Origin: Haloquadratum walsbyi C23
Lineage (GTDB): Archaea; Halobacteriota; Halobacteria; Halobacteriales; Haloferacaceae
Reading direction: 5' to 3'
NCBI RefSeq assembly: GCF_000237865.1
Contig: NC_017458.1
Location: 1-6,056 of the forward strand
DNA: 6,056 nt
Each line of letters opens with the position of its first letter. Positions within the stretch are counted from its first letter, which is position 1. Under the pieces are notes generated by a model. The model was not told where the DNA came from. It did not search any database and saw nothing but the letters and a program-made list of their open reading frames with translations. Positions 1 to 6,056 of this stretch are shown here, one piece after another. The translations under genes and the position numbers were made by a program.

Positions 1-77
1 CCTGATCAGCAACGCCGGACAACGATTAAGTATCATGCTGGACTCATACCAGACAGGCAAAGAAGTAACTCAGTAAT

Positions 78-380
78 ATGAAACAGCCCTTCGAGGAGGA
101 AGGGCACGCCCCAAGAGGAGCGCACCACCGCTCCTCTTGGACTGAACCGACCTTTGGGACGGGTCTTGGTTCAAGTGCTCTTTCTCTTGCTGATTGTAAG
201 TATCCGTCGGAAAAAGCAAATCAGTCGTATACCAGCCGTATAACGTCAGATTGTACAGATAACGACCGTGTTAGTCGTCTTGCGTCAACTTGCGCAAGGT
301 TGCACCGTACTGTGTCAACTTGCACGGTACTGTGTAAGATTGCACGAGTGAGTGCAAATCTGCGAGGGACGTGCGCATGA
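78..380 (+). CDS. Doubtful small ORF (100 codons); possibly the first gene of the forward module, otherwise non-coding control region
   Basis: For: ATG start, 100 open codons in an otherwise non-coding stretch, and a TGA stop (378..380) that overlaps the ATG of the next gene (377..379) as ATGA, the same junction seen at 1270..1273. Against: the product is basic and rich in Cys/Ser/Thr/Arg, unlike the acidic neighbours. Third-position G+C is about 44% by hand count, whereas neighbouring genes mostly use C/G-ending codons. The ORF also contains a perfect 12-bp hairpin and the phased DNA repeat array. Confidence 0.25.
   Translation: MKQPFEEEGHAPRGAHHRSSWTEPTFGTGLGSSALSLADCKYPSEKANQSYTSRITSDCTDNDRVSRLASTCARLHRTVSTCTVLCKIARVSANLRGTCA
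111..140. repeat. Perfect 12-bp inverted repeat (hairpin/cruciform), 6-nt loop
   Basis: CCAAGAGGAGCG (111..122), loop CACCAC (123..128), CGCTCCTCTTGG (129..140). The two arms are exact reverse complements. Confidence 0.9.
143..173. repeat. Imperfect hairpin immediately following the first
   Basis: TGAACC+GACC (143..152) pairs with GGTC (162..165) and GGTTCA (168..173), with a 2-nt TT bulge (166..167) and a 9-nt loop. Confidence 0.6.
280..369. repeat. Helically phased (10-bp) TTGC(A/G)C repeat array with embedded 20-bp tandem unit and palindromes; candidate operator/iteron set
   Basis: YTG(C/T) begins at 280, 290, 300, 310, 320, 330, 340 and 360. TTGC occurs at 280, 290, 300, 320 and 340. 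The 20-bp unit TTGCACCGTACTGTGTCAAC (300..319) is repeated as TTGCACGGTACTGTGTAAGA (320..339), 16/20 identical. GTCAACTTGC occurs at 284..293 and 314..323. TTGCGCAA (290..297) is a palindrome, and TTGCAC-N6-GTGCAA (340..357) is an inverted repeat. The array ends 8 bp before the ATG at 377. Confidence 0.8.
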
Positions 381-1273
381 GTCGAGAAAGTCCGTCTCGA
401 CGTGCCGAAAAACGTGCCCAGTACCTCACGGCGACGACCGAGTTAGAATATCGCAAGGCACACGCCCTCGCATTTTGTGAGCAAGGCTGTAACGAACGTA
501 CCGTCGCCGAACAAATCGGCTCCACGAAAGGCACCGTCTCAAATTATCTCGATGAGATCGCCGAGCGATACGGTCCCGAGACTGTCGTCTCTGTCGGCGT
601 GGACGAGAAAGAGGACCTCACGCCGGTCGAGGACCAACCGACGAAAGGACCGCTGGAGACCATCGACGCCGGTCGTAAAGTCGTCCTTGAAGGAGAGAGT
701 CGAGGACCGCACACTGTTGAACGATACTTCCGAACATGGGTGCGAGACGGTCGGATTCATCGAGATGCAAAACTCGCACTCTCACTACATGATCACGGCG
801 ACGGGGACACACGAGACCGTCTCAGTAATCTCGAATGGGACGCACACCACTGCACATACAACCCCGATTATACTTTTGTGAGTACCGCCGAGAGTCGCGG
901 CTGTTGGACCTTCGATACTGACCCCGTGACTCTCAATGCCATTCGTGAGGTCGTGCATGTCCCGCCTCTCGATACGACGCCTCTTGTCGCCGAGACTCTC
1001 CCTCGTCGTGAGGACCTCGACCCATTCGAGTGCATTAATCCCGATTGCTCAGTCAACGAGGCACACTCAGGTCTCGACCTTCGTGCCTATCCGAGTCTCA
1101 GTGGTCCGGCGATTGAAATTACTGAGATGACAGACTTCGAGACCGTCTCGCACGTCTGTCTTGAGTGCCGGTCGTTGTTTACACCCGTGCCGGTCGGCGT
1201 GCCTGATCAGAAGAACAACGGCGACGACGAGGACGAGGACGACGATAACGTGCTCGTGGAGGCAATGCAATGA
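377..1273 (+). CDS. DNA-binding protein: N-terminal HTH (sigma-70 region 4 / LuxR / HTH_10-like) plus C-terminal Cys4 zinc-ribbon-like cluster and acidic tail
   Basis: The ORF-track start at 371 is a GTG, and the first ATG is 377 (MSRESPSRR...). The HTH pattern is LTATTELEYRKAHALAFCEQGCNERTVAEQIGSTKGTVSNYLDEIAERY (recognition part approx. nt 491..556). The cysteine cluster is C-x4-C (ECINPDC) then C-x2-C (VCLEC) 36 residues later (nt approx. 1031..1168). The tail is DDEDEDDD. Composition is acidic with C/G-ending codons, and the stop overlaps the next ATG (ATGA at 1270..1273). Confidence 0.85.
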   Translation: MSRESPSRRAEKRAQYLTATTELEYRKAHALAFCEQGCNERTVAEQIGSTKGTVSNYLDEIAERYGPETVVSVGVDEKEDLTPVEDQPTKGPLETIDAGRKVVLEGESRGPHTVERYFRTWVRDGRIHRDAKLALSLHDHGDGDTRDRLSNLEWDAHHCTYNPDYTFVSTAESRGCWTFDTDPVTLNAIREVVHVPPLDTTPLVAETLPRREDLDPFECINPDCSVNEAHSGLDLRAYPSLSGPAIEITEMTDFETVSHVCLECRSLFTPVPVGVPDQKNNGDDEDEDDDNVLVEAMQ

Positions 1274-2979
1274 CCGTCGAGACCGAGACCGAGGACGCCG
1301 ACGAGATACGCCGACTCATCAAGCCGCAAGACCACGAGTTTACCGCGAATTTCAATTATGATAACGGACTCGACGCATGGCTTGCCTGTGACTCGGTAGT
1401 GAAGCAACACGACGGCTCATACGAGACCGAGACCGAGGCTCTCGGCGAAACATGGGACGTTACTCTGTACTATCAAGACTCGTCTATCTTGCCACCTCGT
1501 GACGGCACGACGCCCAACGGCACGAAGATCGAGCACGACCAAATCCGTGAGTTTCGCATCCGTGTCGAGGCTCAGGACGAGCTCGGAGAGAAAAAGGCGA
1601 ACTATCATATCCGTCCCCGCTGGCGTCGTATGCGCGTCGAGACTGACGAGGGAGACCAACACGAGTTATCAATCCCTCGTACTCTTGTGAACGAACACGA
1701 CGCCATGAACGTCCGCGTCTCAGGGTCTAATATTGACTTTTGTGATTATGGCGACCTACTCATGTGTGCCGCAAGCTCTCTCGGCGTGAGTGCTCACCAC
1801 TTCCGCGAGTCATATCGACACGAGACCAGCAATGTTCAGGACGCCGCGAAATACGTGCGTGTCCACGAGGACGTATCTGGTCCCGTCCATGCTCGCACTG
1901 GTCCCTTAGTCTCACTTGCGCACGTATTGGAGAACGACCGTGAGGGCTATCGGAAACTCGTGCAAAACGACACCAACGAGCGAGGGCGTCAGTTAGCCGG
2001 TTATTATCATACCGCCACACTCGGTCCTCAGAGAGTCCGTGAGGTATTCCCTGATCATGCCTTGCCCGTCGAGTGCAAACACTACTACGCTCGCGAGGCG
2101 CACTCTCGACCTGACTCTGACGCTCTGGCTCACCCAAAGGTCGAAGTCGCCTATCAGACAAGCCGGACTGACGACACACTGCATCTTACCGACGAGAATC
2201 TTGCCCAACTCGACGAAGAACTCACCGAATGGCTGTATGCTATCCTCGCCGACGCCGGTCTCGACCTGAGGGCGAATGAGAACGTCTATGTCGAGGACGA
2301 ATATTTCTCAGTCGAGAACGCCACGACGACCGCATCCGTTGTCGACCTCGACCTTACCGAAGTCAGACACGAGCAAGAGTCGGTCGTCTACAAGCATCTT
2401 GCTGACGGCATGGCACCCACTGATCAGGAATGTCTCAATGTGCTCGTCTCCGACGGTGGTGCCGTGAGTCCTCAGGACCTTGCCGAGTCCACAGGACGAC
2501 ACGAAGATACTGTTTACAATTCCCTTGCGAGAATGAACGACCTCGTGACACACACCTACGGCGAGGTCTCATTGAAGTCCACATATACCAGTGAACTTGT
2601 CGCCGACGCACTTGATCAGGCACAACAAGCCGTCGATAACGCCGCTAAAACTGCCGCTGATGCCGTCCACGCCAGTAAACGAGGTCTCGATAATGCCACG
2701 AGTGCCTTTGTTGCATGGTGTGAACGATACGGCGTCAACTACAACGACAACGGCGACGGCATGATCATCGACCTCGGTCGCGTCGATAGTATCAAAGAAG
2801 TGCGTAATATCTTGCGTAGTGGCTTCGACCGCTGGTGCAAGATGAAACGAGACGCTATCACCTTCAAATCTGCAAAAGTCAAATGGGAACACGAGGACGA
2901 CGGCAAAGACCTCAATTACTTGCCGTCCTCTCCTACCGTCCGGTCTCACTCTCAACGAGCGTTTACTCTCCTCAAGTGA
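1270..2979 (+). CDS. Large acidic protein (569 aa) with C-terminal winged-helix-like DNA-binding segment; candidate replication/initiator protein (function inferred only)
   Basis: It is the longest ORF, with an ATG start coupled to the upstream stop and strong C/G third-position bias. The segment ECLNVLVSDGGAVSPQDLAESTGRHEDTVYNSLARMNDLVTHTYGEVSL (nt approx. 2416..2574) has the helix-turn-helix plus wing pattern of MarR/TrmB-type wHTH domains. The N-terminal 370 or so residues have no motif I can name. From memory, the largest forward protein of PL6-family plasmids has homologues in betapleolipoviruses; this was not checked. Confidence 0.9.
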   Translation: MTVETETEDADEIRRLIKPQDHEFTANFNYDNGLDAWLACDSVVKQHDGSYETETEALGETWDVTLYYQDSSILPPRDGTTPNGTKIEHDQIREFRIRVEAQDELGEKKANYHIRPRWRRMRVETDEGDQHELSIPRTLVNEHDAMNVRVSGSNIDFCDYGDLLMCAASSLGVSAHHFRESYRHETSNVQDAAKYVRVHEDVSGPVHARTGPLVSLAHVLENDREGYRKLVQNDTNERGRQLAGYYHTATLGPQRVREVFPDHALPVECKHYYAREAHSRPDSDALAHPKVEVAYQTSRTDDTLHLTDENLAQLDEELTEWLYAILADAGLDLRANENVYVEDEYFSVENATTTASVVDLDLTEVRHEQESVVYKHLADGMAPTDQECLNVLVSDGGAVSPQDLAESTGRHEDTVYNSLARMNDLVTHTYGEVSLKSTYTSELVADALDQAQQAVDNAAKTAADAVHASKRGLDNATSAFVAWCERYGVNYNDNGDGMIIDLGRVDSIKEVRNILRSGFDRWCKMKRDAITFKSAKVKWEHEDDGKDLNYLPSSPTVRSHSQRAFTLLK

Positions 2980-3010
2980 TGCCGTCCTCGTGAGTGGCAA
3001 CACTCTCGAC

Positions 3011-3022
3011 GACCCTCTTTTT
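3011..3022 (+). terminator. Candidate oligo-T terminator of the forward module
   Basis: GACCCTC is followed by a T5 run (3018..3022), about 40 nt after the TGA stop at 2977..2979. Archaeal termination commonly occurs at oligo-T tracts. There is no experimental support here. Confidence 0.3.
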
Positions 3023-3170
3023 CGACCCTCACGCGACATCTGACCGCCTTCGAGGGTCCCCTTTCGTCGTGATCGGTGTGGTGCGCGTCGAGATCGGCGT
3101 CAGTGCTGGTTTGGAATTTGGTGCGACTCACCGGACTCGCTGTTAGGGGTGTGCCTAAGGGCACAACATC

Positions 3171-3670
3171 AAAACACATACCGTAGTTTTGCTCGCGCAA
3201 AAATTTCTACACACAATATCACTCGTGATGTTGTCTCGTTCGGAGCTCCAATTGAGAACGAGACTGCACACTCACAGATTAGACAGATTAGTTGTGCAAC
3301 TACAATATCCTCTGATAAATTCAAGCTCTTGATATTATCATTGTTAAATCTATTCCTGCAACACTTGCTGATACCGTTCAGACCTGTACGCTATCGGAAT
3401 ATATTGCTGATTAATTAAACTCGTTTATATTCTCATTGATAAAAGTAGGGTCACTCGGGAATCCCTGATTTGCGAGTGGTGGATTTTCTAATTTAAATAG
3501 TGTATCTGAGAATAGATCCAAATTTCTCAGACCCTCACGGTTTGTTAGATTCAATGTGAGATTATGAGGAGACTCTCGACGAGAGATATGCCTCTCTCTA
3601 TGTCGGTAACTCAAATCCAGCGTTAATCAGTGTGATTCAGGGTCGGTATATTCAGGATAGATTAACTCTG
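3171..3670. other. AT-rich, ORF-poor convergent intergenic region (candidate origin/DUE, ncRNA locus or insertion hot spot)
   Basis: Hand count gives 194 G+C in 500 bp (about 39%), compared with about 52 to 62% in the two sampled coding stretches. The only ORFs here start at GTG or TTG, lack any internal ATG and are non-acidic. The region contains AT palindromes TTAATTAA (3411..3418) and ATTTAAAT (3491..3498), AGATTA at 3277, 3286, 3559 and 3659, ATTCAGG at 3635 and 3650, and small inverted repeats at 3187..3202, 3505..3531 and 3574..3586. Confidence 0.7.
3274..3291. repeat. Perfect tandem direct repeat, 9 bp x 2 (ACAGATTAG ACAGATTAG)
   Basis: 3274..3282 and 3283..3291 are identical. They are followed directly by TTGTGCAA, which contains GTGCAA, the reverse complement of the TTGCAC half-site of the 280..369 array. 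Confidence 0.9.
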
Positions 3671-3704
3671 TCTCAACGTGCGCGTGTCTGTGGCGCCGTG
3701 CTCA

Positions 3705-3722
3705 CAAAACACAAAAATAAAT
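3705..3722 (-). terminator. Candidate oligo-T terminator of the reverse module
   Basis: On the minus strand, directly after the TGA stop (3725..3727), the sequence reads GGATTTATTTTTGTGTTTTGTG, which includes a T5 run (3713..3717) and a T4 run (3706..3709). Confidence 0.35.
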
Positions 3723-3724
3723 CC

Positions 3725-4051
3725 TCAGAAAAATGAGTCCACGCTGACGAATTGATGCATATACCCACGGTCGCTGTGCCAGTCCTCGCCGAGCTCGTCG
3801 GCGACCTGATCAGCCTCGACTTGCTTGGGCGGTTGATTATCTTGGAGATCGTCGAAGATGTATGTGCCGTCGTTCTCGACTAACGTCTCGTGCGTGTCTT
3901 TGTTCAATCGAAACCTATCTTCTTTCTTTGCGAGTCGGACCTCGGTGGGCTCGTCGCCGATCATGCCGTCAGGTCCGAACGACTCACTCGGCGTCCCTCC
4001 GAAGTCTTTGATCAATTGTTTCTCAATGTCTGTGTGGTCGAAGTCTGTCAT
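3725..4051 (-). CDS. Small acidic protein (108 aa), unknown function; weak PD-(D/E)xK / VRR-NUC-like pattern
   Basis: The start is taken at the internal ATG (4049..4051, MTDFDHTDIEKQ...). The upstream 93 codons of the track ORF (to 4330) are basic and mostly overlap the 3' end of the ATPase gene in another frame. The product is acidic. The segment FGPDGMIGDEPTEVRLAKKEDRFRLNKDTHETLVENDGTYIF loosely resembles a PD...E-x-(K/R) nuclease core. Confidence 0.8.
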   Translation of the reverse strand: MTDFDHTDIEKQLIKDFGGTPSESFGPDGMIGDEPTEVRLAKKEDRFRLNKDTHETLVENDGTYIFDDLQDNQPPKQVEADQVADELGEDWHSDRGYMHQFVSVDSFF

Positions 4052-4080
4052 TTGTCTGTTATTTTTTCTGAATAGCGCGT

Positions 4081-4090
4081 ATGTATTATA
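4081..4090 (-). promoter_or_regulatory. Candidate TATA-like element for the 4051..3725 gene
   Basis: The minus strand reads TATAATACAT at -39 to -30 relative to the ATG, inside the 58-nt gap after the ATPase stop. It shares an AATACA core with elements upstream of the other reverse genes. Confidence 0.3.
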
Positions 4091-4109
4091 CTGTTCAAGT
4101 GGTCGGTGG

Positions 4110-4940
4110 TCAGTCGTCGGCAGGTTGTTCGGTCGGGTTTGTCGCATCTGTGTACTTACTGACCCATGACTGCGACATATCCACGACCTCAGATACCTCT
4201 CGCGTCGAGAGACCGAGGTCTCGTGCTCGCTGGGCATCTGCCTTTTTCTGGTCTCTCTCAACTTCCTCAGGGTCGGGCTCGTCCTCTTGCAGTTCGTCGG
4301 CGTCGAAGTGCTCACTGTCGAGTAAATCATCCTTTTTCTCAGTTACCGCCTCAAAATATGGGTCGTCGTGTCTGTCGAGATTTGGAAATGGTATTCTATT
4401 TCTCGGTATGTCGTCGTAACTCTCAGTGCGCACGTCGCCTCGGTCGAATGTGCTCGTCACTTTATACGGTCGAAAGTATCCTATGGGTCTCTTGAGTGCC
4501 CACAGTCGATAATCTGCAAACCGTCGCATCCGAACATCTGCATCTGACCAATGCGGCAAGGTCGTGATTGTTACAATCCGTTTCTTGCGCATGAGTTGCC
4601 ACGACCGACCGAGATTCACGTTCTTATTACTCATCGACCGTCGTGAATCTCCAGCACCGGCACCGGCGAGTTCGTCGAGGACAATTACACTCGGTTGATA
4701 TGCGTCAGGGTGCTCTCGCCAGCGTTCAAGATATTGCTCTCCTGAGAGTGTGAAGTCGTCAGGGTGTAAGTCGTAATCGAACGCTCGTGCACACATCTGT
4801 GCTATTGCACACGCTAAGGTCGTCTTACCGACGCCTGTGCTCGCATCCTCGGCGTCAATGATCAGTCGGGCACCACCTTGCCTCGGTCCATGAATGCCAT
4901 GCATAAGGTCGTTCCAAAAGTCCGTCTCTGAGATGTGCAT
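4110..4940 (-). CDS. P-loop NTPase (Walker A/B) with acidic linker and C-terminal HTH; virus/plasmid-type ATPase
   Basis: Walker A is ASTGVGKT (nt 4821..4844, verified by back-translation). Walker B is VIVLDE (nt 4671..4688). A TITT strand follows. The linker is acidic (DDLLDSEHFDADELQEDEPDPEEVERD). The C-terminal HTH is ARDLGLSTREVSEVVDMSQSWVSKYT (nt approx. 4152..4235). The ATG lies 2 nt after the upstream gene's stop. From memory, PL6-family plasmids encode an ATPase similar to a His1 halovirus ATPase; this was not checked. Confidence 0.92.
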   Translation of the reverse strand: MHISETDFWNDLMHGIHGPRQGGARLIIDAEDASTGVGKTTLACAIAQMCARAFDYDLHPDDFTLSGEQYLERWREHPDAYQPSVIVLDELAGAGAGDSRRSMSNKNVNLGRSWQLMRKKRIVTITTLPHWSDADVRMRRFADYRLWALKRPIGYFRPYKVTSTFDRGDVRTESYDDIPRNRIPFPNLDRHDDPYFEAVTEKKDDLLDSEHFDADELQEDEPDPEEVERDQKKADAQRARDLGLSTREVSEVVDMSQSWVSKYTDATNPTEQPADD

Positions 4941-4942
4941 GA

Positions 4943-5569
4943 TTAGATCAGGTCGGAATAATCGAAGTCTACCGCCTCGTCATCATTCTCATTCAATCCA
5001 ACGTCGAGACCGAGATCGGCGAGTACGTCATTTGCTTTTGTGAACGCCTCGTCAAATATCCGAGAATCAATCACCGCTGTCGGATGCTGTAATCCATCCT
5101 GATCAACGACCTCTCCAACACGGTCGCTAAACCGTCCGTGGTTTTTCTGGACACGTCGCCACTTGCGGTCGAATGTCGCGTTAATCTTCAACAGTTGCCC
5201 AAGCCCGTTAATATCAATCTCGTCGCCTTGTACCATGACCTCAGGACCACCACGACCGCCCATTGTTGTCCGTCGTTGCTGTAATTCAATCGTGCCGATA
5301 TGGTCCGTTGTCCACAGACTCGCATGCTCAGATCGCAGTATGATCGGTCGAATGTCCAGCAAAAACGAGTCGAGGCGAGACTTGAGTAACTCGGCACCGT
5401 CGGCATTACTCAAGTTGCCCGTGCGTACCGAGGACCGAATTTCATGTCGTGCAGTGATGTACCCATGTCTCAGATTGAGTATCTCTTTAATCCGCTTTTT
5501 CTGCACTACGTTGTCGTCGTCCGTTAGTGAGAGGCTTGTACTGTCGGCGTCGTCTTTCGTGCCCGACAT
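4943..5569 (-). CDS. Hypothetical acidic protein (208 aa), no motif recognised
   Basis: ATG start at 5567..5569 and TAA stop at 4943..4945, only 2 nt before the ATPase ATG, which suggests an operon and translational coupling. Composition is acidic with C/G-ending codons. It has a Gly-rich MGGRGGPE segment and an acidic aromatic C-terminus, DEAVDFDYSDLI. Confidence 0.85.
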   Translation of the reverse strand: MSGTKDDADSTSLSLTDDDNVVQKKRIKEILNLRHGYITARHEIRSSVRTGNLSNADGAELLKSRLDSFLLDIRPIILRSEHASLWTTDHIGTIELQQRRTTMGGRGGPEVMVQGDEIDINGLGQLLKINATFDRKWRRVQKNHGRFSDRVGEVVDQDGLQHPTAVIDSRIFDEAFTKANDVLADLGLDVGLNENDDEAVDFDYSDLI

Positions 5570-5606
5570 GTCTGCATATCTTTTGTGTATTCATTTGTAT
5601 GCACGG

Positions 5607-5969
5607 TTATACCAGATTTATGATGAGTAGCGATATGAGTAAGAATGTGATCACGGCACCACCGGCTATCTGCACTGTTCTGTCCGCTCGGTTAATGTCG
5701 TTGTACTGTCCCCTCAGTGGCTCGTCTTTGAGTATATCTGGCTTCGTGTCAGTCTCCTCAGAGGCGTCGTTATCTAACCGTGAGAGTATCTCATCGAGGT
5801 CATCCTGTATGTTCTCGACGCTTGCCTCGTCGTCGTCAGTATGATCGAGCCCTCGTCGAACTAACCGACGCATTGCTTCCGCCTCAGAGATATTATGCTC
5901 GTCCTGATATTCCTCGACTCGCCTCGCGTCGTCGGCATCGAGTCGTGTCTGATACTGTTGTCTTACCAT
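5607..5969 (-). CDS. Ribbon-helix-helix (CopG/Arc/MetJ-like) DNA-binding protein with acidic linker and C-terminal transmembrane tail anchor
   Basis: The N-terminus VRQQYQTRLDADDARRVEEYQDEHNISEAEAMRRLVRRGL fits a beta-strand, helix, turn, helix RHH pattern (nt approx. 5847..5963). A D/E-rich linker of about 55 aa follows. The extreme C-terminus TVQIAGGAVITFLLISLLIINLV is one hydrophobic helix (nt approx. 5610..5678). It is the first gene of the reverse module. Confidence 0.85.
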   Translation of the reverse strand: MVRQQYQTRLDADDARRVEEYQDEHNISEAEAMRRLVRRGLDHTDDDEASVENIQDDLDEILSRLDNDASEETDTKPDILKDEPLRGQYNDINRADRTVQIAGGAVITFLLISLLIINLV

Positions 5970-5988
5970 ATCTCTTACCTCTCACTGT

Positions 5989-6002
5989 ATACATATGTAT
6001 TC
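5989..6002 (-). promoter_or_regulatory. Candidate TATA-like promoter element (12-bp palindrome ATACATATGTAT) for the reverse module
   Basis: The perfect palindrome at 5989..6000 lies at -20 to -31 from the ATG at 5969. That position suits a leaderless or short-leader archaeal transcript. The minus strand reads GAATACATATGTATAC. A GAGAGG stretch nearer the ATG could alternatively act as a weak Shine-Dalgarno. Confidence 0.35.
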
Positions 6003-6056
6003 AACGATACGACAAACAACGTAAATACTGACTGACCAATTCGATACCTGTCGAAA

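What the first reader, a model, noticed from the sequence alone, without database searches (positions are those of the whole stretch)
1..5653. Dispersed palindrome TGATCA / CCTGATCAGG is about 8-fold over-represented across both gene modules
I count 12 TGATCA sites: 3-8, 790-795, 1204-1209, 2052-2057, 2421-2426, 2613-2618, 2762-2767, 3807-3812, 4009-4014, 4859-4864, 5100-5105 and 5648-5653. About 1.5 are expected (6056/4096). Total GATC is 23 by my count, close to the uniform expectation of about 24, so the excess lies in the flanks: 12 of 23 GATC sit in the T_A context. Six sites match at least 9/10 of the 10-bp palindrome CCTGATCAGG (1-10, 1202-1211, 2050-2059, 2419-2428, 2611-2620, 3805-3814). 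The 9-mer CCTGATCAG or its complement occurs 4 times, against fewer than 0.1 expected. Seven of the 11 coding sites are read as xxT-GAT-CAx (Asp-Gln or Asp-His) in genes on both strands, and they use GAT although GAC is the commoner Asp codon by inspection. This suggests selection at the DNA level. Palindromes are usually avoided in mobile DNA, so enrichment points to a function. Candidates are binding sites for one of the four encoded DNA-binding proteins (compaction, packaging or partition), a methylation-dependent signal, or a host-wide k-mer signature. The motif is absent from 2768-3806, a stretch that contains the AT-rich region.
Basis: seen in the sequence. Interest (0 to 1): 0.8.

Follow-up and report, generated by a model that had tools for sequence, protein, structure and literature searches.

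The report
Enriched TGATCA palindrome in pL6 plasmids
A small cryptic plasmid of the square archaeon Haloquadratum removes almost every 6-base palindrome from its DNA yet keeps one, TGATCA, at four to nine times the expected number, which points to a selected but still unidentified recognition site.

Summary
The window is plasmid pL6B of Haloquadratum walsbyi C23. In detail: there are 12 TGATCA sites. Base composition predicts 1.35 and dinucleotide shuffles predict 2.7. For the 11 coding sites, shuffles that keep protein sequence, codon usage and all dinucleotides give 2.6, and none of 3000 reaches 11.

It is not a host signature. In 104 kb of Haloquadratum chromosome the ratio is 1.7x by composition and 0.7x by Markov models. 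In host plasmid PL47 it is 1.1x.

The enrichment is confined to one monophyletic clade of pL6 plasmids. There the sites are both conserved and independently gained. All other 6-bp palindromes are depleted about 3-fold, and other GATC contexts about 2-fold.

The flanks favour CCTGATCAGG. None of the plasmid's DNA-binding domains (R4 RHH, F2 HTH, F3 wHTH, R6 HTH) tracks the enrichment. A prospective test of F2 failed.

The best reading is a positively selected recognition or processing site for a dimeric protein whose identity is unknown. Candidates are the PvuII/Hjc-like protein R7 found here, or a host factor. The nearest precedent is the GCCCA motif that marks single-strand gaps in the related virus HRPV-3. 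The enrichment is not mentioned in the pL6 papers I could search.

The parts
3..8 (.). TGATCA site 1 (CCTGATCAGC), the only intergenic site. It lies between the divergent R4 and F1 genes.
   Evidence: Also present at nt 3 of pBAJ9-6 and absent from pLT53-7.
790..795 (.). TGATCA site 2 in F2 (CAT-GAT-CAC, His-Asp-His).
   Evidence: Shared with pBAJ9-6.
1204..1209 (.). TGATCA site 3 in F2 (CCT-GAT-CAG, Pro-Asp-Gln). A 9/10 match to CCTGATCAGG.
   Evidence: Shared with pLT53-7 and pBAJ9-6.
2052..2057 (.). TGATCA site 4 in F3 (CCT-GAT-CAT). A 9/10 match.
   Evidence: Shared by six close relatives. Also visible in pCABO-c2 in a published spacer alignment.
2421..2426 (.). TGATCA site 5 in F3 (ACT-GAT-CAG). 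A 9/10 match.
   Evidence: Shared by eight sequences counting the window (seven relatives).
2613..2618 (.). TGATCA site 6 in F3 (CTT-GAT-CAG). A 9/10 match.
   Evidence: Shared with L001, L002, L004 and L011. Lost synonymously in L005 and L010.
2762..2767 (.). TGATCA site 7 in F3 (ATG-ATC-ATC). Private to pL6B; relatives have TGACCA or similar.
3807..3812 (.). TGATCA site 8 in R7 (GCT-GAT-CAG on the minus strand). A 9/10 match. Private to pL6B.
4009..4014 (.). TGATCA site 9 in R7 (TTG-ATC-AAA). Shared with L001, L002 and the distant L015.
4859..4864 (.). TGATCA site 10 in R6 (CTG-ATC-ATT). Shared with L001 and L002.
5100..5105 (.). TGATCA site 11 in R5 (GTT-GAT-CAG). Shared with L001 and L016.
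5648..5653 (.). TGATCA site 12 in R4 (GTG-ATC-ACA). Private to pL6B.
3725..4051 (-). R7 gene (108 aa). Its predicted fold is that of a PD-(D/E)XK nuclease (PvuII / Hjc-like). It is listed only as a candidate reader or processor of a palindromic site. No link to TGATCA has been shown.
   Evidence: AlphaFold2 model with pLDDT 83.5 and pTM 0.75. Foldseek top hits are PvuII (TMq 0.61-0.66) and archaeal Hjc, and all of the top 25 are PD-(D/E)XK nucleases, though E-values are only 0.005-0.1. E10, D28 and E37-V38-R39 are invariant in 36 homologs. Most homologs carry a precomputed PF25941 hit; the look-up tables name it PDDEXK_16 and flag it as weak.

Best explanation
TGATCA, with a weak extended consensus CCTGATCAGG, is a positively selected dispersed recognition sequence. 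It is specific to one clade of pL6-family plasmids. These plasmids purge 6-bp palindromes in general, presumably to escape restriction enzymes. This one palindrome is kept, and re-created after loss, at about 2 per kb on both gene modules.

A 6-10 bp palindrome spread over the whole replicon is what a dimeric sequence-specific protein would read. The sites are not clustered at a promoter or origin, so the protein would act on the plasmid as a whole. I think the most likely use is replication-linked processing. That would mean strand interruption or priming, or resolution of intermediates, as with the GCCCA motif that precedes single-strand gaps in HRPV-3. HRPV-3 is a betapleolipovirus that shares the F3-type replicase. 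Packaging or segregation is the second option.

Shown: the enrichment, its independence from coding constraints and from the host, its clade restriction, conservation plus turnover of sites, and the flank preference.

Inferred: that a protein reads the site, what that protein is, and what it does. No plasmid DNA-binding domain co-varies with the motif.
For: - Enrichment survives every null.
- Relatives are enriched independently against their own strict nulls: pLT53-7 7 vs 1.9, pBAJ9-6 8 vs 1.0, L015 8 vs 2.2.
- Not host-derived. In 104 kb of Haloquadratum chromosome there are 45 sites vs 25.9 (composition) or 66-68 (Markov), and only 10% of GATC are TGATCA. TGATCA ranks 23rd of 180 there. PL47 has 14 vs 12.5.
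- Other pL6-type contigs have the same GGCC/CTAG avoidance but no excess: L075 has 0 in 4.6 kb, L083 has 1 in 3.1 kb, L016 has 3 in 5.9 kb.
- The enriched elements form one clade on the F3 tree.
- Compared with 101 composition-matched control words in a 5-plasmid alignment, TGATCA has 23 distinct loci (controls mean 5.4, max 13). It has 13 single-lineage loci (mean 4.5, max 11), 6 private to L015 (mean 1.5) and 4 deeply shared (mean 0.47, max 2).
- Synonymous positions inside sites are 93-100% conserved among close relatives, against 61-80% background.
- All other 6-bp palindromes are depleted: 31 vs 100.5 in the window overall, and 19 vs 61.8 in coding DNA.
- Flanks: C at -1 and -2 in 46% of de-duplicated half-sites against 25-28% background, P = 0.01 and 0.03.
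- One-mismatch neighbours are not drained: 103 vs 117.
- Precedent: HRPV-3 carries an F3 homolog at 44.7% identity. Its GCCCA motif maps to single-strand gaps (PMC3384331) and is itself 2-fold enriched, 27 vs 13.4.
- R7 has a restriction-endonuclease/resolvase fold.
Against: - No reader was identified.
- R4 comes in two unrelated RHH types within the enriched clade.
- The R6 HTH is the same in the non-enriched L016.
- L083 has a near-identical F2 recognition helix and no excess. L015 has a diverged F2a helix and is enriched.
- The F3 wHTH of L015 resembles that of non-enriched plasmids.
- L080 carries F2, F3, R5, R6 and R7 and has no TGATCA at all.
- The HRPV-3 motif is asymmetric and only 2-fold enriched, so the analogy is loose.
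- A plasmid carrying 12 sites for its own nuclease with no methylase is awkward.
- Other GATC contexts are depleted at the same time. This hints at a GATC-centred cause that a simple binding-site model does not explain.
- Site spacing shows no reproducible order.
- There are no experimental data on pL6 DNA.
Confidence: 0.45

Rival explanations
1. Methylation-linked signal. Hosts of this plasmid clade carry a TGATCA-specific (BclI-type or orphan) DNA methyltransferase. Methylated TGATCA is then either the only GATC palindrome safe from restriction, or a positive mark for timing, self-recognition or protection, so the plasmid accumulates it.
For: - The whole GATC-context spectrum is reshaped at once. 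Over four plasmids, TGATCA is 34 vs 7.8, GGATC-containing contexts are 4 vs about 26, CGATCG is 1 vs 12.5 and AGATCT is 0 vs 3.6. Non-TGATCA GATC is halved in each plasmid.
- Strong general palindrome avoidance shows that restriction pressure dominates this plasmid's composition.
- None of the plasmid's own DNA-binding domains tracks the motif, which fits a host factor.
Against: - Immunity from restriction would make TGATCA neutral (O/E about 1), not 4-5 fold enriched with repeated gains.
- The host chromosome sample shows no excess.
- Published surveys list no E. coli Dam homolog for either H. walsbyi genome (PMC5867850 Table 4). They list only predicted GGCC methyltransferases (PMC11033074).
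- Other Haloquadratum-type pL6 plasmids lack the excess.
- AGATCA, CGATCA and AGATCG are at expectation, so unprotected GATC is not generally harmful.
Confidence: 0.2
2. Mutational drive. A sequence-biased repair or gene-conversion process creates TGATCA without any benefit to the plasmid. One candidate is a mismatch nuclease acting like Vsr, possibly the PD-(D/E)XK protein R7. The plasmid is present at about 30 copies per genome, which would give such a process many templates.
For: - Repeated independent gains in the enriched clade.
- R7 has a nuclease fold of the same superfamily as Vsr (that Vsr belongs to this superfamily is from my own knowledge).
- The plasmid is multi-copy and co-resides with pL6A (PMC11431627).
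Against: - One-mismatch neighbours of TGATCA are not depleted as a class: 103 vs 117. Only GGATCA is depleted, which is explained by GGATC avoidance, and TGACCA mildly.
- R7 is also present in the non-enriched L016, L020 and L080.
- Several gains need 2-4 substitutions.
- Synonymous positions in sites are conserved above background.
Confidence: 0.12
3. Phylogenetic inertia or chance. An ancestor happened to carry many TGATCA sites, and its descendants simply inherited them.
For: - The enriched elements are monophyletic.
- Nine of the 23 site columns are shared by two or more of the five aligned plasmids.
Against: - The chance of 11 coding sites is below 1/3000 under the strictest null.
- Single-lineage sites alone number 13, against a control mean of 4.5. 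L015 has 6 private sites.
- At 58-73% synonymous identity, inherited sites should have decayed.
Confidence: 0.04
4. Host-wide oligonucleotide signature of Haloquadratum walsbyi that is passively shared by its plasmids.
For: The plasmids do share the host's GGCC and CTAG avoidance.
Against: - Host chromosome sample: O/E 1.7 by composition and 0.67 by Markov, rank 23 of 180. PL47: O/E 1.1, rank 63.
- Only 10% of host GATC sites are TGATCA, against 50% in pL6B.
- Other pL6 plasmids with the host's GGCC/CTAG signature lack the excess.
- Caveat: the chromosome sample is 104 kb from Lake Tyrrell genomes J07HQW1 and J07HQW2, taken next to transposable elements. It is not strain C23 itself.
Confidence: 0.02
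5. A coding- or RNA-level constraint. Examples are codon-pair preference, off-frame stop codons, or pairing of UGAUC with the 3' end of 16S rRNA.
For: - Eleven of the 12 sites are in genes.
- TGATCA contains TGA in one frame on both strands.
- UGAUC is complementary to part of the 16S 3' tail (my own knowledge).
Against: - Shuffles that keep protein, codons and dinucleotides do not reproduce the excess.
- The exact complement of the 16S tail would be TGATCC, which is absent from the window and strongly depleted (1 vs 6.8 over four plasmids).
- The signal is specific to the palindrome, occurs in two reading frames, and is absent from sister plasmids that encode the same proteins.
Confidence: 0.02

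Closest known systems
GCCCA motif preceding single-strand DNA gaps in the genome of betapleolipovirus HRPV-3 (Sencilo et al. 2012, PMC3384331)
   Same: - HRPV-3 is a small circular haloarchaeal element that encodes a homolog of the F3 protein (44.7% identity).
- Its short motif is dispersed over the whole genome inside genes.
- The motif is over-represented: 27 vs 13.4, P<0.002.
- The motif differs between related elements; HGPV-1 is not enriched for GCCCA.
- No virus-encoded enzyme is known for it, and the authors suspected a host enzyme.
   Different: - GCCCA is a 5-mer, asymmetric, strand-specific and only 2-fold enriched.
- TGATCA is a palindrome and is 4-9 fold enriched.
- Physical gaps have been shown for HRPV-3 and never examined for pL6.
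- HRPV-3, HGPV-1 and HRPV-11 have no TGATCA at all.
TGATCA/G hexamers of the bacteriophage P1 pac site, whose cleavage is controlled by Dam methylation (own knowledge, not checked here)
   Same: The same hexamer with a GATC core, repeated several times, and read by a DNA-processing enzyme of a mobile element.
   Different: - The P1 hexamers are clustered within about 160 bp at one locus.
- Here the 12 sites are spread over 6 kb, with a smallest gap of 149 bp.
- No Dam homolog is listed for H. walsbyi.
HIP1 (GCGATCGC), the highly iterated palindrome of cyanobacterial genomes (own knowledge)
   Same: A palindrome with a GATC core that is greatly over-represented, dispersed and frequent inside genes. 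Its function is still debated, and it is linked to methyltransferases.
   Different: HIP1 is a chromosome-wide property of the host. Here the host chromosome lacks the excess and only one plasmid clade has it.
DNA uptake sequences (Neisseria DUS, Pasteurellaceae USS) and dispersed centromere sites (chromosomal parS, the four scattered sites of prophage N15) (own knowledge)
   Same: Short recognition sequences kept by selection at about one per kb, or scattered through coding DNA. They are read by one protein that acts on the whole molecule.
   Different: - Uptake sequences are asymmetric and chromosome-wide.
- parS sites are 16-bp palindromes, few in number, and read by an encoded ParB.
- No ParB/ParA pair and no uptake system is recognisable on pL6B.
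Restriction-site avoidance in mobile DNA, as reported for pL6 plasmids for GGCC, CTAG and GGATCC (PMC11431627, PMC3119063)
   Same: The same plasmids and the same class of words (short palindromes). The avoidance is confirmed here and extends to nearly all 6-bp palindromes.
   Different: TGATCA goes the opposite way. It makes up 12 of the 43 palindromic hexamer occurrences in the window.

Membership tests
Host genome oligonucleotide signature | The host chromosome and other resident replicons show the same observed/expected ratio. | tested here: not met
   104 kb of Haloquadratum chromosome has 45 sites vs 25.9 (composition) or 66-68 (Markov). PL47 has 14 vs 12.5. Ranks among 180 matched words are 23 and 63, against 1 for the plasmid.
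Restriction-site avoidance | The word is under-represented relative to composition-preserving nulls. | tested here: not met
   TGATCA is enriched: 11 vs 2.6. The feature is met by the other 63 palindromic hexamers taken together: 31 vs 100.5.
HRPV-3-type motif-associated genome discontinuities | The element encodes the ORF9/F3-type putative replicase. | tested here: met
   F3 matches HRPV-3 ORF9 at 44.7% identity over 94% of its length, E = 1e-143. It hits DUF7845.
HRPV-3-type motif-associated genome discontinuities | A short motif is dispersed over the genome and over-represented. | tested here: met
   pL6B has 12 TGATCA vs 2.7. HRPV-3 has 27 GCCCA vs 13.4.
HRPV-3-type motif-associated genome discontinuities | Single-strand interruptions lie physically at the motif. 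These would show as mung-bean nuclease fragments, TdT labelling or a drop in sequencing signal. | not testable with these tools
   This needs native pL6 DNA. The method is described in PMC3384331.
HRPV-3-type motif-associated genome discontinuities | The motif is asymmetric and the interruption lies on one defined strand. | tested here: not met
   TGATCA is its own reverse complement.
Operator or iteron of a plasmid-encoded HTH/RHH protein | Sites are concentrated in a promoter or origin region. | tested here: not met
   One of the 12 sites is intergenic. The other 11 lie inside six of the seven genes.
Operator or iteron of a plasmid-encoded HTH/RHH protein | The motif and the DNA-reading element of the protein co-vary among relatives. 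| tested here: not met
   - R4 has two unrelated types within the enriched clade.
- The R6 HTH is identical in the non-enriched L016.
- The F2 helix is nearly identical in the non-enriched L083 and diverged in the enriched L015.
- The F3 wHTH does not track the enrichment.
Dam/SeqA-type GATC cluster or P1 pac-type hexamer cluster | Several sites lie within about 200 bp at one locus. | tested here: not met
   Gaps between sites are 149-1045 bp, with no cluster.
Dam/SeqA-type GATC cluster or P1 pac-type hexamer cluster | The host has a GATC adenine methyltransferase. | not tested
   From the literature only: neither H. walsbyi genome is marked as having an E. coli Dam match (PMC5867850 Table 4).
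Uptake-sequence or HIP1-type genome-wide iterated motif | High density throughout the host chromosome. | tested here: not met
   The host has 0.43 sites per kb, against 2.0 per kb on pL6B.
PD-(D/E)XK nuclease superfamily (for R7 only) | An alpha-beta-beta-beta-alpha-beta core fold with an acidic triad and a Lys (E...PD...(D/E)XK). | tested here: inconclusive
   The fold matches PvuII and Hjc (TMq up to 0.66, probability about 1, but E-values only 0.005-0.1). E10, P27-D28 and E37 are conserved, but the Lys position is an invariant Arg (R39). This Pfam copy gives no hit. Most homologs carry a precomputed PF25941 hit; the look-up tables name it PDDEXK_16 and flag it as weak.

The most novel reading that the evidence does not exclude
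TGATCA is a programmed processing site that marks the plasmid's own DNA. A dimeric PD-(D/E)XK protein (R7) or a host enzyme would nick or gap the plasmid at each site, or dock on it. That would support an unusual discontinuous replication, or vesicle or virus-like packaging and transfer. The site would then be an archaeal plasmid counterpart of the HRPV-3 discontinuity motif or of bacterial uptake sequences. It would have evolved in a replicon that otherwise erases every palindrome.
Probability: 0.15. Interest if true: 0.8.

Novelty: new variant of a known kind. Interest (0 to 1): 0.55.

Why it matters
pL6 plasmids are abundant worldwide in one of the dominant organisms of salt-saturated brines. 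How they replicate, segregate and move between cells is unknown, and almost all their proteins are cryptic.

A single palindrome is held at high density while all others are purged. That makes it a concrete, cheap experimental handle. BclI digestion, methylome reads, nuclease mapping and oligonucleotide pull-downs could each reveal the factor that acts on the plasmid.

If the sites prove to be strand-interruption sites, they would link pL6 plasmids mechanistically to betapleolipoviruses. They could also help identify the enzyme behind the unexplained discontinuous genomes of those viruses.

The contrast between a purged palindrome background and one enriched palindrome may also serve as a general way to find functional sites in small mobile elements.

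Tried and rejected
1. An initial correlation looked good: full F2 or stand-alone F2a was present in all enriched elements and absent from L016 and L075. I then fetched new F2-bearing contigs. L083/L084 (F2 70% identical, almost the same recognition helix) and L080 (F2 45%) show no excess. Rejected.

2. Two unrelated R4 types occur inside the enriched clade. Rejected.

3. R6 HTH and F3 wHTH as readers. Neither tracks the enrichment.

4. Regular spacing or significance of the motif-free AT-rich stretch. There is slight over-dispersion in pL6B only (P about 0.02-0.04), which is not reproduced in L001 or L015. The largest gap is ordinary.

5. Conversion from neighbouring words by Vsr-like repair. 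Neighbours are not drained.

6. Decay of CGATCG by deamination as the source. Too few CGATCG sites are expected (about 2.4 in pL6B) to yield 12 sites.

7. Pairing with the 16S rRNA tail. The true complement, TGATCC, is depleted.

8. Searches that gave nothing:
- IMG/VR has no F3 relative.
- PL100 under my guessed accession NC_017457.1 and the Haloquadratum viruses MT764210 and MT764220 are not in the local collections.
- pL6A could not be fetched.
- One contig look-up timed out.
- Rfam has no hit in the window.
- Pfam and PHROGs give no informative domain for F1, R5 or R7.
- Literature searches found no paper that links TGATCA to haloarchaea.

Full report
**Identity of the window.** The 6056-bp sequence has 52.0% G+C. 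Two Haloquadratum walsbyi plasmids, pLT53-7 and pBAJ9-6, match it at 85-87% identity. The size and G+C are those published for pL6B of strain C23 (PMC3119063). The F3 protein is 100% identical to an NCBI H. walsbyi protein on a 6056-bp contig. The genes are F1 78-380, F2 377-1273 and F3 1270-2979 on the plus strand. On the minus strand they are R7 3725-4051, R6 4110-4940, R5 4943-5569 and R4 5607-5969.

**The observation.**
- All twelve TGATCA coordinates are exact.
- Base composition predicts 1.35 sites. Dinucleotide shuffles give 2.71, with a maximum of 7 in 200.
- GATC occurs 24 times, not 23. That is at expectation (23.5), and 12 of the 24 are flanked T_A.
- The six 9/10 matches to CCTGATCAGG (0.13 expected) are exact. 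So are the four CCTGATCAG 9-mers (0.09 expected).
- Seven coding sites read xxT-GAT-CAx and four read xTG-ATC-Axx. GAC outnumbers GAT 132 to 50.

For the 11 coding sites:
- Synonymous-codon shuffles give 2.17, and codon-order shuffles give 1.10. None of 3000 reaches 11 in either case.
- A stricter shuffle swaps third positions only between codons with the same first two bases, the same amino acid and the same following base. It therefore preserves every dinucleotide. It gives 2.59, with a maximum of 7.
- Eleven of the 20 amino-acid contexts that could encode TGATCA do so.
- TGATCA ranks first of the 180 hexamers with the same base composition. It has 12 copies and the next best has 5.

The enrichment is therefore real. 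It is 8-9 fold against a compositional null and 4-5 fold against nulls that preserve coding. The motif-free stretch 2768-3806 is not meaningful, because a gap that large occurs in 94% of random placements.

**Not a host signature.** I fetched host chromosome by searching for the end of a Haloquadratum transposable element whose sequence is printed in a supplement of PMC3119063. That gave 13 stretches of 8 kb from the Lake Tyrrell genomes J07HQW1 and J07HQW2.
- TGATCA occurs 45 times there, against 25.9 by composition and 66-68 by Markov models.
- Only 10% of the 443 GATC sites are TGATCA.
- The word ranks 23rd of 180.
- The GATC density of 4.3 per kb agrees with the published 4.66 per kb for the C23 chromosome.
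- The 47-kb host plasmid PL47 has 14 sites against 12.5 expected.

**Distribution among relatives.**
- pLT53-7 has 9 sites, pBAJ9-6 has 10, and a 7.7-kb plasmid unit within contig L015 has 9. About 1.3-2 are expected in each.
- Each is significant against its own strict null.
- Short metagenome fragments of close relatives are enriched too.
- Other pL6-type contigs have the same absence of GGCC and CTAG but no excess. L075 has 0 in 4.6 kb, L083 has 1 in 3.1 kb, and L016 has 3 in 5.9 kb.
- The G+C-rich, GGCC-rich relatives L018-L021 and L080 have no excess either.
- On a tree of F3 proteins the enriched elements form one clade. They carry 1-4 sites per F3 gene. The sister group carries 0-1 and all outgroups, including HRPV-3 and HGPV-1, carry 0.

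**Conservation and turnover.** In an alignment of five plasmids, TGATCA occupies 23 distinct columns. Nine are shared and 14 belong to a single plasmid, six of them to L015. I compared this with 101 composition-matched control words:

| Measure | TGATCA | Control mean | Control max |
|---|---|---|---|
| Distinct loci | 23 | 5.4 | 13 |
| Single-lineage loci | 13 | 4.5 | 11 |
| Private to L015 | 6 | 1.5 | 6.5 |
| Deeply shared loci | 4 | 0.47 | 2 |
| Private to L016 | 1 | 0.9 | 3 |

TGATCA is first or second on every measure except in the non-enriched L016. Synonymous positions inside sites are 93-100% identical among close relatives, against 61-80% for other synonymous positions. The sites are therefore both kept and regained, which chance inheritance does not explain.

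**The background makes the exception sharper.**
- The other 63 palindromic hexamers together occur 31 times in the window, against 100.5 expected (O/E 0.31).
- In coding DNA under the strict null they occur 19 times against 61.8.
- Host chromosome pieces are at O/E 0.76-0.86 and PL47 at 0.89.
- Within the GATC family, pooled over four plasmids, TGATCA is 34 vs 7.8. Contexts containing GGATC are 4 vs about 26, CGATCG is 1 vs 12.5 and AGATCT is 0 vs 3.6. AGATCA, CGATCA and AGATCG are at expectation.
- One-mismatch neighbours of TGATCA are not drained: 103 vs 117.
- De-duplicated half-sites prefer C at the two positions before TGA: 46% against 25-28% background, P = 0.01 and 0.03. This supports a longer CCTGATCAGG-like consensus.

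**Who reads the site?**
- R4 has two unrelated ribbon-helix-helix types inside the enriched clade.
- The R6 helix-turn-helix is the same in L016.
- F2 looked promising at first. Every enriched element encodes F2 or the stand-alone N-terminal domain F2a, and L016 and L075 do not.
- I tested F2 prospectively by fetching new F2-bearing contigs. L083 has an almost identical recognition helix and no excess. L080 has none either. The F2a helix of the enriched L015 is the most diverged. F2 is therefore rejected.
- The F3 winged helix does not track the enrichment.
- R7, previously without any assigned domain, folds with good confidence (pLDDT 83.5) into a PD-(D/E)XK nuclease core. The closest structures are the restriction enzyme PvuII and the archaeal Holliday-junction resolvase Hjc.
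- In R7, E10, P27-D28 and E37-x-R39 are conserved.
- A dimeric enzyme of this kind is a natural reader of a palindrome. However, R7 also occurs in non-enriched plasmids, so no link is shown.
- A host-encoded factor remains equally possible.

**Closest precedent.** HRPV-3 is a betapleolipovirus with an F3 homolog (44.7% identity). Its genome is interrupted by short single-stranded gaps that follow the motif GCCCA (PMC3384331). I find that motif 2-fold over-represented in HRPV-3 (27 vs 13.4, P<0.002). It is not over-represented in HGPV-1, whose motif the authors describe as less clear. Related elements can thus carry different dispersed motifs tied to DNA processing. The analogy is loose, because GCCCA is asymmetric and less enriched, but it can be tested directly.

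**Novelty.** The three pL6 papers and their held supplements discuss only under-represented words (GGCC, CTAG, AGCT, GGATCC). They contain no statement about TGATCA or about a nuclease fold for R7. Literature searches found nothing that links TGATCA to haloarchaea.

**Verdict.** Selection at the DNA level is supported and the host-signature option is refuted. The binding-protein option is neither proven nor attributable to any annotated protein. Function remains inferred. I favour a selected recognition or processing site for a dimeric protein (confidence about 0.45). The rivals are a methylation-linked signal (0.2) and a mutational drive (0.12).

Noticed in passing
window 1-6056 (whole plasmid); also L001, L002, L016, L075: Six-base palindromes as a class are strongly purged. 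In the window there are 31 against 100.5 expected (O/E 0.31), excluding TGATCA. Over four plasmids, CTCGAG is 0 vs 15.9, GACGTC is 1 vs 13.6, GATATC is 0 vs 7.2 and GTCGAC is 7 vs 19.2. The host chromosome is at only 0.76-0.86. The pL6 papers report avoidance only for GGCC, CTAG and GGATCC.
   Followed up: partly
window, all GATC sites (e.g. 3515 AGATCC is the only GGATC/GATCC): The asymmetric 5-mer GGATC/GATCC is almost absent from the enriched clade: 4 against about 26 expected over four plasmids. The host chromosome has it at expectation. This suggests pressure from a type IIS-like GGATC enzyme in the host population.
   Followed up: partly
window 3725-4051 (-), gene R7: R7 has no assigned domain in the literature. 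It is predicted to have a PD-(D/E)XK nuclease fold closest to PvuII and Hjc. E10, PD27-28 and E37-V-R39 are invariant, with Arg at the usual Lys position.
   Followed up: partly
window 276-340 (3' part of F1, upstream of F2): A tandem 20-nt direct repeat lies at 300-319 and 320-339 (80% identical). Overlapping 18-nt repeats carry recurring TTGCAC/GTGCAA words, and there is a TTGCGCAA palindrome. These look like iterons and could be the real protein-binding or origin region.
   Followed up: no
window, coding regions: CGACCG/CGGTCG is about 2-fold enriched even under the strict null: 23 vs 11.0, 0/3000. It is likewise elevated in L001, L002 and L015. This is unexplained.
   Followed up: no
L015 1-11488: This metagenome contig is about 1.5 copies of a 7727-bp circle. 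It is a pL6 plasmid of the F2b/F2a type with an extra sulfatase-like gene. Two TGATCA sites lie inside that accessory gene.
   Followed up: partly
L019 1-6116 and L080 1-5435: Two F3-bearing elements from other hosts are almost free of GATC itself. L019 has 1 against 23.7 expected and L080 has 6 against 18.7. This implies GATC-directed restriction in their hosts.
   Followed up: no
L001 6666-6995, L015 5854-6225 and L016 433-783 versus window 5607-5969: The R4 position is filled by two unrelated families of membrane-anchored ribbon-helix-helix proteins, which are swapped among otherwise close plasmids. The F3 C-terminal region of L015 resembles that of another clade. Both observations indicate frequent module exchange.
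   Followed up: partly
L072 (HRPV-3) whole genome: The GCCCA motif, published as marking single-strand gaps, is itself 2-fold over-represented: 27 vs 13.4 by dinucleotide shuffles. I did not find this stated in the passages of the paper I retrieved.
   Followed up: partly
window 3060-3100: Two GATC sites in the F3-R7 intergenic region sit in similar contexts: cgtcgTGATCGgtg and cgtcgAGATCGgcg. The first is TGATCA in pBAJ9-6, L015 and L016, so this is one of the few deeply shared positions.
   Followed up: no
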